From contig OZ024758.1 of assembly GCA_964016885.1 (NCBI GenBank), positions 3,720,001-3,784,000 of the forward strand: a stretch of 64,000 bases of DNA, read 5' to 3'. Source of the stretch: Eledone cirrhosa (Eukaryota). The notes below the pieces were generated by a model. It was given only the letters and a program-made list of their open reading frames with translations, was not told the origin of the DNA and ran no database searches. The translations under genes and the position numbers were made by a program. How positions within the stretch are numbered: the first letter of the stretch is position 1; every line of letters begins with the position of its first letter. Below are positions 6,088-55,560 of the stretch, piece by piece.

Positions 6088-6748
6088 GTGTACACAGTAA
6101 ATTAACCGGCGACTTCATGTAAATGTACAAACACATATATCACTATATGAACTTTTCCCGAAAAAAAAAAAAAATCTAATACAGTTTTAAATACAGGTCA
6201 GAGTTTGTTGTAAAATCAATAGGCAGGCAGTGCTTACATACTCTTATCACGCCAAGAACATCTTTTTTAATTAACACTTTCACCAACAGGCCAAGGTAGC
6301 AGAAAGATTGAAGTGCTCTTTGCCACCATTAAGGAAGTGTTACAGGTTACGTCTTCTGCGAATTTTCTCTTCCTCAATACATAGTAAAGTTTGATCTTTT
6401 TTGTTTGAGCTTTTTTTTAGTCGTACACACACAATTACATGAAAACAGGAACCCATATGCACATATACAGAGACATACAAACAGAGATACACACGCAAAC
6501 CTTCACATATACAAACTCATATAAATGATAGTTGTCAATTTATACATATATATATGTTTTGACTCGTAATTCGAGGTGGGTTCTTAGTGTCATGAAGTGT
6601 CATGAGTAATAAAGCCTGGTGGAGACCATCCTTTCCAGGGAAAGAAAGAGAAAAAGTGCTAAATGATGTGACAAAGAGATATAGAGAAAGATTCAACCTC
6701 AGTGGTTGAGTGATATTTTATTTATTACCATTGTGAGTCTAACTAGAA

Positions 6749-21320: not shown

Positions 21321-21727
21321 ACTCACATATACTACTTACTATATCCATTACATTACCTCCCTTCAGTATTGTCACTAATTTATCATATACTTTTTTTTTC
21401 TATAAAATTCTGTTTTATTTGTCCTTCATTGTCTTTAAATTCTATATGGCAGTGTATAGTATTGTAGCTGTTGAGTCACCGCATGTATTATATATATATA
21501 TATGTATATATGTTTACTGTATCTCCTGGATCAGCTGCGTGTGATTCAGGTGTGTACAAAGCTGTTCATATATTGTAGGATGTGTTTTTCATTGTGTACA
21601 CATGAATGAGTTTGTCTATGATTTTATAGGAAAACTAGCATTATTTTATTTTTACGGCTGAGGACTCCCGTAAGAAATGATGTCACTATCTATGTGAACA
21701 TATACGCAAACACACAACCCCCCCCCC

Positions 21728-22446: not shown

Positions 22447-22478
<32 letters not shown>

Positions 22479-22479
22479 G

Positions 22480-22793
22480 CTTTGGGAGGGTCATGTTGCC
22501 AATAAGAAACACACGCACCAGTTGCTTTCACTCTAATTTATTATAAATTAAATTTATAACTTTAAGAATTCATAAATTTCCGGTTGGTTGGTTGGTTCCA
22601 TAACCGGACGGTTGTTCATATGTGTGACGAAAGAACTTTGACAATATATGAACAACCGTCCGGTTATGGAATCAACCAACCAATCGGAAATTTATAAATT
22701 CTTAAATTTATAAATTTAATTCATAATAAATTGGAGTGAAAGCACTGGTGCGTGTGTTTCTTATTGGCAACATGACCCTACCAAAGTATAACA

Positions 22794-22797
<4 letters not shown>
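22480..22797 (+). mobile_element. Foldback element family E; about 140-bp arms around the 3' half of a hammerhead
   Basis: 22480-22621 is the reverse complement of about 22646-22786; spacer TGTGTGACGAAAGAACTTTGAC matches the ribozyme at 55055-55099; (TA)n on both sides. Confidence 0.9.
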
Positions 22798-54492: not shown

Positions 54493-54539
<47 letters not shown>

Positions 54540-54576
54540 ATATTCATATATATATATATTTATATTTATATATATA

Positions 54577-54615
<39 letters not shown>

Positions 54616-54670
54616 TCATATATATATATATATATTCATATATATATATTTATATATATATTTATATATA

Positions 54671-54740
<70 letters not shown>

Positions 54741-54804
54741 TATATATATATATTTATATATATATATTTATTTATATATATATATTTATATATATATATT
54801 TATT

Positions 54805-54840
<36 letters not shown>

Positions 54841-54895
54841 TATTTATATATATATATATATTTATATATATTTATATATATATATATATATTTAT

Positions 54896-55131
54896 ATATT
54901 GTTATACTTTGGGAGGGTCATGTTGCCAATAAGAAACACACGCACCAGTTGCTTTCACTTCAATTTAATTTATTAAATATTTATAAATTTACAAATTTAT
55001 AAATTTCTGGTTGGTTGGTTGGTTCCACAACCAGATAGTTGTTTATATATATATAGTCATAGTTCTTTCGTCACACACTCTGTGACCTCTTCAGTGACTG
55101 GCAACATGACCCTCCCAAAGTATAACAATAT
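54896..55131 (-). mobile_element. Family E element with a complete hammerhead and an about 33-bp terminal inverted repeat
   Basis: ATATTGTTATACTTTGGGAGGGTCATGTTGCCA ... TGGCAACATGACCCTCCCAAAGTATAACAATAT; embedded in TA/TTTA arrays. Confidence 0.9.
55055..55099 (-). ncRNA. Minimal type I hammerhead ribozyme (family E)
   Basis: AGUCA-CUGAAGA-G-GUCACA(GAGUG)UGUGAC-GAAA-GAACUA|UGACU; 5-bp stem I, 6-bp stem II, 2-bp stem III, CUA site between 55060 and 55059. Confidence 0.85.
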
Positions 55132-55214
55132 CGGTTTCAACACACGATTTCAGATAAAGAATCTTGCTAAACAAATTCAGAAACGAAATATATTTATATA
55201 TATATATATTTATT

Positions 55215-55267
<53 letters not shown>

Positions 55268-55274
55268 ATTTATT

Positions 55275-55307
<33 letters not shown>

Positions 55308-55354
55308 ATTTACATATATATTTATATATATATATATTTATATATATATATATT

Positions 55355-55409
<55 letters not shown>

Positions 55410-55560
55410 ATATATTTATATATATTTGTATATATATATATATATTTATATATATTTATTTATATATATATTTATTTATATATATATATATATATTTATA
55501 TATATTTATATATATATATTTATATATATTTATATATATTTATTTATATATATATATATT

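What the first reader, a model, noticed from the sequence alone, without database searches (positions are those of the whole stretch)
54896..55131. Cleanest ribozyme: a MITE look-alike whose apparent TIR starts exactly at hammerhead stem I
Seen: all three stems and the core are readable (AGUCA/UGACU, GUCACA/UGUGAC, CUA site; one extra G after the core; 2-bp stem III). The roughly 33-bp inverted copy of the element's 3' end begins right at the outer edge of stem I (55099). Inference: the apparent TIR is a retrotransposition inversion product rather than a transposase-binding end. The paralog at 22480 supports this, because its inverted arm is about 140 bp.
Basis: partly seen in the sequence, partly recalled or inferred. 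Interest (0 to 1): 0.78.

Follow-up and report, generated by a model that had tools for sequence, protein, structure and literature searches.

The report
Twice-primed Penelope retrotransposon mimics MITE
This 295-base insert is a truncated, head-to-head piece of a very abundant Penelope-like retrotransposon with that group's usual minimal hammerhead motif, and A-to-G clusters (likely RNA-editing marks) shared by both arms of other copies suggest that such arms are likely copied from one RNA molecule primed at two sites.

Summary
Not a MITE. The insert (54896-55190) is two 5'-truncated, head-to-head copies of the 3' repeat (pLTR) of an autonomous Penelope-like element (PLE; RT, CX4CX2C linker, GIY-YIG) whose end motif occurs 24,646 times. 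The hammerhead is real and is a typical PLE minimal type I motif that probably needs a dimer. The inverted arm is 92 bp, not 33: it runs through the 59-nt PLE 'tail', which is the start of the ORF. Arm lengths vary from a few bases to 3.9 kb, and this junction occurs once in the genome. The stem I coincidence sits on a 3-nt microhomology; a hotspot there appeared in one sample and not in a second. The anatomy is known. The family adds mechanism: 130 of 133 head-to-head pairs carry exactly one tail; in 5 of 8 informative A-to-G hypermutated pairs both arms share the same sense-strand changes, and the other 3 look like edited hairpin transcripts written back. This favours one sense RNA primed at two sites, a question the PLE papers I read leave open. 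Cleavage, transcription and the mechanism were not tested at the bench.

The parts
54896..55101 (-). Tail-less arm: last ~207 nt of the PLE pLTR (hammerhead, AT-rich spacer, ORF start codon at 54921-54919, internal end site)
   Evidence: maps to -211..0 of a real copy, L121; 99% identical to L002 and L003
55055..55099 (-). Minimal type I hammerhead motif (stem I 5 bp, stem II 6 bp, extra G after the core, 2-bp stem III with 2-nt loop; predicted cut 55060/55059)
   Evidence: sequence; fold; covariation with a sister family; conservation
55099..55101 (.). Junction microhomology TGG/CCA (3 nt; 4 if the template had G at the next position)
55099..55131 (+). Inverted arm, part 1: the 33 bp seen as a 'TIR'; end of the pLTR with ATG at 55106 and the first codons of the ORF
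   Evidence: [10 protein letters not shown]... is the N-terminus of the ORF in L123
55132..55190 (+). Inverted arm, part 2: the ~59-nt PLE tail (ORF codons ~9-29); last bases shared with the TA tract
   Evidence: 12,278 tailed ends genome-wide
54500..54895 (.). (TA)n-rich target tract, left flank (as far as read)
55191..55500 (.). (TA)n-rich target tract, right flank (as far as read)
22476..22797 (.). Paralogous head-to-head insertion: arms 22476-22616 and 22621-22797, truncated inside stem II, no tail visible on either arm

Best explanation
The insert is a doubly 5'-truncated, head-to-head insertion of an autonomous Penelope-like retrotransposon in a (TA)n tract, likely made when one uncleaved sense RNA was reverse-transcribed twice from the two nicked target strands and the two cDNA ends were likely joined at a 3-nt microhomology. 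Shown: parent element, arm structure, tail, overlap, one-tail rule, shared A-to-G clusters in other copies. Inferred: the element's GIY-YIG domain nicks both strands; one 3'-OH starts at the internal site (giving the 207-nt tail-less arm that runs through the whole hammerhead) and the other at the tail end 59 nt downstream (giving the 92-nt arm); the RT may act as a dimer. The hammerhead is a passenger in this copy: the arm contains sequence on both sides of the cut site, so the template was not cleaved. In the parent it likely works only as a dimer or with protein help.
For: Parent: L123 holds pLTR-ORF-pLTR, unit about 4.15 kb, with an inverted 5' copy; RT motifs and C-terminal CX4CX2C plus GIY-YIG/CCHH residues are read from the translation; 34% identity over 798 aa to P0095, which passes Pfam GIY-YIG. 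24,646 end motifs, 12,278 with tail, 49.8%. Exactly one tail in 37 of 39 and 93 of 94 adjacent pairs. Arms are not nested: the tailed arm reaches further 5' in only 18 of 37 and 32 of 93 pairs, which rules out fold-back copying of one cDNA for the rest, this copy included. Both arms share sense-strand A-to-G clusters in L123 (32 of 33/32), L094 (27 of 31/30), L292 (12 of 12/13), L341 (5 of 7/6), L343 (10 of 10/12). A lone A-to-G change was shared in only 1 of 7 pairs. Microhomology of 2 nt or more in 40 of 66 junctions without insertion, 18% expected. No excess of 5' ends at the cut site: 3 of 86 and 2 of 174. In vitro, the anole PLE protein cuts and extends both strands, starts at two internal sites that define the tail, is predicted to be a dimer and uses uncleaved RNA (PMC11167929).
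Against: This copy's arms overlap by only 33 bp and carry no edits, so its shared template is extrapolated from other copies. 3 of 8 informative hypermutated pairs (L295, L326, L347) show a different pattern, one arm A-to-G and the other T-to-C, so some units have another history. Shared changes could also come from two RNAs of one already-edited source copy, or from conversion between arms. 67 of 133 junctions have inserted bases, not microhomology. Pooled samples give a weak excess at the stem I edge (11 of 241, 5.3 expected, P about 0.02). The paralog at 22480 shows no tail on either arm. The direct Pfam RT hit is below the curated cut-off (19.5 vs 29.6 bits) and GIY-YIG was not hit directly. 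No RNA reads were usable.
Confidence: 0.7

Rival explanations
1. Same PLE origin, but the two arms come from two separate RNA molecules of one source copy (or are homogenised by conversion after insertion).
For: Two RNAs of an edited source copy would share its changes. Partner arms are usually closer than the median copy (34 of 36) but closest in only 12 of 36.
Against: No third copy with the same matched string appears in the genome-wide listings for the L123, L094 and L292 patterns. Lone changes are shared in 1 of 7 pairs, so conversion is not general. Independent RNAs would not by themselves give exactly one tail per pair.
Confidence: 0.15
2. Fold-back self-priming: one cDNA (or an antisense transcript, as proposed in PMC3846280) folds back and copies itself to make the inverted arm.
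For: Short overlaps at junctions; some pairs are nested, e.g. L292; proposed in print.
Against: It needs one arm nested in the other. Here the short arm has the tail that the long arm lacks, and the tail-less arm is the longer in 57 of 93 pairs. Shared changes are A-to-G on the sense strand, not T-to-C.
Confidence: 0.07
3. The hammerhead or an RNA 5' end at stem I fixes the inversion point.
For: 7 of 80 5' ends at -215..-205 in sample 1; pooled P about 0.02. In D. virilis Penelope an intron ends at the 5' edge of helix I (PMC4209133).
Against: Not replicated (4 of 161). RT meets the 3' strand of stem I first. The strong hotspot is elsewhere, -259..-280 (14 of 72; 48 of 147). A TGG/CCA overlap accounts for this junction and for L011 and L018.
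Confidence: 0.06
4. A true MITE with 33-bp TIRs that inserts at TA and captured a ribozyme-like sequence.
For: Perfect 33-bp inverted ends in a TA context.
Against: Junction unique; arm lengths variable; the 'TIR' is the start of an RT ORF; copy depth falls steeply towards the element's 5' end in run X3.
Confidence: 0.01

Closest known systems
EN+ Penelope-like elements with a CX2-5CxxC linker (Neptune or Nematis clades; PMC8557442)
   Same: Single RT + C-terminal GIY-YIG ORF, linker zinc-finger-like motif, pLTRs with hammerhead, 5' truncation, inverted 5' copy, tail at one end, (TA)n targets.
   Different: Tail about 59 nt against the 30-40 bp described; about 24,600 ends; clade not fixed by a tree here.
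Pen2a_Av of Adineta vaga (PMC3846280)
   Same: pLTR contains the first codons of the ORF, the tail extends them, the tail is on one of the inverted pLTRs, microhomology at junctions.
   Different: Low copy number with visible TSDs there; none can be seen here in TA tracts. That paper favoured antisense self-priming, which the data here do not.
PAc, Poseidon of Anolis carolinensis (PMC11167929)
   Same: Two internal RT start sites inside the ORF start define the tail; AT-rich target; uncleaved RNA used.
   Different: Poseidon lacks the linker motif; its hammerhead overlaps the start codon, here it lies about 135-180 nt upstream; the parts I read do not address how the two arms are paired.
Minimal type I hammerheads of metazoan PLEs (PMC4209133)
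   Same: Longer helix II, short helix I, unpaired base before stem II, G10.1-C11.1, palindromic 15.2-16.2.
   Different: Keeps a 2-nt insertion in helix III (AA or GA); activity untested.
L1 twin priming (recalled, not from a call)
   Same: Two target-strand primers on one RNA, joined at microhomology, give an inversion.
   Different: In L1 the two segments cover different parts of the RNA; here both cover the same 3' region from two fixed start sites.
Non-LTR retrozymes (bioRxiv 10.64898/2026.07.22.740005)
   Same: Type I hammerhead related to PLE pLTRs.
   Different: Retrozymes are tandem, non-coding repeats; this is a truncated copy of the coding element itself.

Membership tests
EN+ Penelope-like element | Single ORF with RT and C-terminal GIY-YIG endonuclease | tested here: met
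   Translation of L123, L081, L082; Pfam RT E=9e-4, below cut-off; GIY-YIG through homolog P0095. L123 has one frameshift.
EN+ Penelope-like element | Partial-tandem pLTRs flanking the ORF | tested here: met
   L123: pLTR-ORF-pLTR, about 4.15 kb
EN+ Penelope-like element | Inverted 5'-truncated copy and optional tail on one end | tested here: met
EN+ Penelope-like element | Hammerhead in the pLTR | tested here: met
Neptune clade | CX2-5CxxC linker before GIY-YIG, and CCHH motif | tested here: met
   CX4CX2C and C,C,H,H residues read from the translation; definition from PMC8557442. Shared with Nematis.
Neptune clade | RT groups with reference Neptune proteins | not tested
   No named reference set was fetched; no tree built
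PLE minimal type I hammerhead | Core, extra nucleotide, G10.1-C11.1, helix II 6+ bp, short helix I, unstable helix III | tested here: met
   two compensatory pairs in stem II between two families (rows were chosen by core and stem II, so invariance there is by construction); no subfamily-level change at 11 core sites, against 27 of 271 pLTR sites, not significant alone
PLE minimal type I hammerhead | Self-cleavage (dimeric or protein-assisted) | not testable with these tools
   No raw RNA reads; no excess of genomic 5' ends at the cut site
MITE (DNA transposon derivative) | Fixed-length TIRs across copies | tested here: not met
MITE (DNA transposon derivative) | Defined TSD | tested here: inconclusive
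   Both flanks are (TA)n
MITE (DNA transposon derivative) | Cognate transposase between the same ends | tested here: not met
   Long copies between these ends encode RT and GIY-YIG
Non-LTR retrozyme | Tandem non-coding units each with a hammerhead | tested here: not met
   Single head-to-head insert; parent is coding

The most novel reading that the evidence does not exclude
PLE inverted repeats are made by one RT-endonuclease complex priming a single sense RNA at both of its start sites, one per target strand. This family records it: one tail per pair in 130 of 133 pairs, and ADAR-type edit sets acting as single-molecule barcodes on both arms. The resulting MITE look-alikes are themselves transcribed as hairpins, edited, and written back into the genome.
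Probability: 0.6. Interest if true: 0.68.

Novelty: new member of a known kind. Interest (0 to 1): 0.45.

Why it matters
The locus itself is ordinary PLE debris and a warning for repeat annotation: thousands of such units would be filed as MITEs. The family matters more. PMC8557442 (section 15) names the formation of tandem/inverted structures as unexplained, and PMC3846280 leaves sense versus antisense template open. Here the copy number allows a near-strict one-tail rule to be counted, and natural A-to-G barcodes tie both arms to one sense RNA. That turns an open question into a direct genome-wide and in vitro test. It also points to edited RNA being fixed in the germ-line genome.

Tried and rejected
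Rfam, whole window and region: no hammerhead family, only microsatellite hairpin noise. The repeat finder was swamped by (TA)n. Single-strand folding z-scores of the hammerhead were not significant. Stem I edge as hotspot: seen in sample 1, lost in sample 2. Cut site as 5' end: no excess. Short ends near -35 as a separate family: of 20 loci inspected, most are micro-insertions in TA tracts and a few belong to sister families. RNA evidence: the 2 RNA runs found hold only small shares and are contigs; they show no start, end, cleavage or editing. Donor locus for L326: none of the 9 other loci fetched, from 40 scored candidates, carries PLE arms, so whole-unit remobilisation is not shown. Antisense-edit patterns: 0 and 1 matches, against 9 for one sense pattern; the patterns are not equivalent. 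Hypermutated arms without an overlapping partner (L291, L294, L315, L317, L321, L344, L346) say nothing about pairing and were left out of the count of 8; L290, L342 and L345 had few or unclear changes and were also left out. Earlier findings of the scan: three look-ups, nothing.

Full report
OBSERVATION. A relaxed descriptor found no other such motif in the window. Rfam does not recognise it, and folding gives stems I and II with an unremarkable z-score. Stem III has two pairs round a 2-nt loop and cannot close in a monomer. The 33-bp inverted repeat is perfect. But the 59 bases after it (55132-55190) are not flank: the same bases follow the end of many other copies. The inverted arm is therefore 92 bp and the insert spans 54896-55190, between (TA)n tracts.

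THE FAMILY. The window's genome (G000, 3.0 Gb) has 24,646 exact matches to a 29-nt end motif, 12,278 matches to the tailed form (49.8%) and one match to this junction. Of the 42 near-full-length hits to the 236-bp query, only this copy and L005 extend into the inverted arm; the rest start at query position 28-30. Long copies encode an RT followed by CX4CX2C and a GIY-YIG-type domain. L123 holds pLTR-ORF-pLTR of about 4.15 kb, with one frameshift and an inverted 5' copy. The 'TIR' plus tail translates as the ORF's N-terminus. Pfam hits the RT weakly (E 9e-4, under the cut-off) and not the nuclease; homolog P0095, 34% identical over 798 aa including the C-terminus, passes GIY-YIG. The top named homolog is an Octopus vulgaris protein at 70%, so the host is likely a cephalopod. 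In run X3 (kind not on record, possibly the same sample) depth falls about a hundredfold from the 3' end to the ORF's 5' end, as expected for 5'-truncated retrocopies.

ARM STATISTICS. Positions count from the tail-less end (0); the tail ends near +59, the predicted cut is -170, stem I begins at -209. Sample 1 was the first 100 listed end motifs on contig C1, stitched into 68 segments with 116 arms. Sample 2 was 158 loci anchored on 80 of 193 tail-less and 80 of 133 tailed ends with a set TA-run length; L129 and L157 were dropped as overlaps. Exactly one arm had the tail in 37 of 39 and 93 of 94 adjacent head-to-head pairs. One further pair, split by a 3.9-kb insertion, was not counted and also has one tail. 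The three exceptions had two tails; in L123 one 'tail' is simply the ORF running on. The window paralog at 22480 shows no tail and was in neither sample. Shorter arms ranged from 7 to 1,877 bp in sample 1. The tailed arm ended within 60 nt of position 0, or inside the tail, in 35 of 93 pairs, so the window's short tailed arm is a common type. 5' ends at -259..-280 were in strong excess in both samples (14 of 72, 2.6 expected; 48 of 147, 7.0 expected). At the stem I edge: 7 of 80 (1.4 expected), then 4 of 161 (3.9 expected); pooled P about 0.02. At the cut site: 3 of 86 and 2 of 174, no excess. Of 133 refined junctions 67 had inserted bases; of the other 66, 40 overlapped by 2 nt or more (18% expected) and 22 by 3 or more (6% expected). 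The window junction overlaps by TGG.

THE RIBOZYME. In arms aligned without regard to the core, 193 of 231 keep all 11 core positions. Subfamily-level variation falls at loop II, the helix III insertion, position 17 (U/A) and the outer pair of stem I, and at none of the core sites; with 27 variable sites in 271 this is suggestive only. A sister family has the same core and two compensatory pairs in stem II, though those 12 rows were chosen by core and stem. Every feature matches the PLE minimal hammerhead of PMC4209133, where a single motif did not cleave and dimers cleaved weakly. This copy spans the cut site, so its template was uncleaved, as in the PAc experiments.

A-TO-G BARCODES. A scan of 435 arm segments for clustered transitions of four kinds found only A-to-G clusters, in 4 segments from 2 insertions. 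Pattern searches found more. Eight head-to-head pairs overlap in the mutated stretch. In five, both arms share the same sense-strand changes: L123 32 of 33/32, L094 27 of 31/30, L292 12 of 12/13, L341 5 of 7/6, L343 10 of 10/12. A sixth pair on C4 shares its matched string in the listing but was not fetched. In three (L295, L326, L347) one arm has A-to-G and the other T-to-C, which is A-to-G along one genomic strand. None had one mutated arm and a clean partner. Four of the five search patterns were built on sense A-to-G changes or on a fragment already seen, so the class ratio is not an estimate. As control, a lone A-to-G at -191 was shared by both arms in 1 of 7 pairs. That these clusters are ADAR edits of the RNA template is inference from their kind, strand and density. 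In L123 the upstream pLTR is mutated in both arms and the downstream pLTR is not, which fits one tandem RNA primed at the downstream internal site and at the upstream tail.

MECHANISM. Shown: parent, arm geometry, one-tail rule, non-nested arms, overlaps, shared changes. From print: a PLE protein cuts and extends both strands, starts at two internal sites that define the tail, and is predicted to dimerise (PMC11167929). Inferred: both starts are used on one sense RNA, one per target strand; the trailing RT displaces the first cDNA; the 3' ends are joined by microhomology or with inserted bases. Fold-back copying needs nested arms; the tail-less arm is the longer in 57 of 93 pairs and in this copy. 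The -268 hotspot is likely RT run-off at a transcription start in the pLTR; a motif there resembles a YY1 site (recalled, not from a call) and is kept in the sister family. The one-strand class likely reflects hairpin read-through transcripts that were edited and recopied, but no donor was found, and in-place change is not excluded.

COMPARISON AND NOVELTY. pLTRs, the inverted 5' copy, a tail often at one end, (TA)n targets and pLTR hammerheads are all described (PMC8557442, passages, section 15; PMC3846280, passages; PMC4209133, parts 1-2 of 4; PMC11167929, parts 1-2 of 4; bioRxiv 10.64898/2026.07.22.740005, part 1 of 5). So the locus is a new member of a known kind. I found no paper that counts the one-tail rule, uses editing marks to pair the arms, or applies twin priming to PLEs, in seven searches judged from their listings. 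The library lacks most subscription papers, I did not read the older Penelope papers cited in these works, and I read no supplements; any of these may already state the model.

VERDICT. PLE identity about 0.97; one-RNA double priming about 0.7; a special role of stem I in the inversion under 0.1. Interest 0.45: an ordinary locus in a family that makes an open mechanistic question testable.

Noticed in passing
L123:4320-4805 and 6108-6597; L094; L292; L341; L343: Dense A-to-G clusters on the element's sense strand, mostly between -295 and -95, shared by both inverted arms; the last ~95 nt and the tail are mostly spared, perhaps because the protein-binding region must stay intact.
   Followed up: yes
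L295:1480-2260; L326:4369-7209; L347:1276-2037: Head-to-head units with A-to-G along one genomic strand across both arms; in L326 the pattern spans 2.8 kb and the TA tract between arms has 58 C to 3 G. Likely edited hairpin transcripts written back; no donor found.
   Followed up: partly
family position -259..-280 (e.g. L023, L026, L090): Strong hotspot of 5' ends at an AARATGGCG motif, YY1-like by recall, also kept in the sister family; candidate transcription start.
   Followed up: partly
window:30609-30641; L128, L151, L232, L093, L195: Sister PLE family sharing the ~30-nt end, with a different pLTR interior and a covarying hammerhead.
   Followed up: partly
L127, L153, L199, L204, L219: Solo 35-bp micro-insertions of the end motif with TA repeats on the 5' side.
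   Followed up: no
L121/L122 (G000:C1:13.32-13.34 Mb): Two near-full-length arms, 99.8% identical, head-to-head across a 3.9-kb unrelated insert: a young 12-kb inverted unit.
   Followed up: partly
L107; L007; L179 upstream of the short arm: Other PLE families nearby: separate RT ORFs with PLE-like motifs in L107 and L007, and a different hammerhead-like motif in L179.
   Followed up: no
window:30535-30560 and 21658-21677: CUGANGA...GAAA strings that did not pass the stem II test; the first lies just beside the sister-family end.
   Followed up: no
L123:3329-3700 (minus strand): Asparagine-rich low-complexity stretch in the ORF's N-terminal part, where frameshifts occur; N-rich inserts are described for Adineta PLEs.
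   Followed up: no
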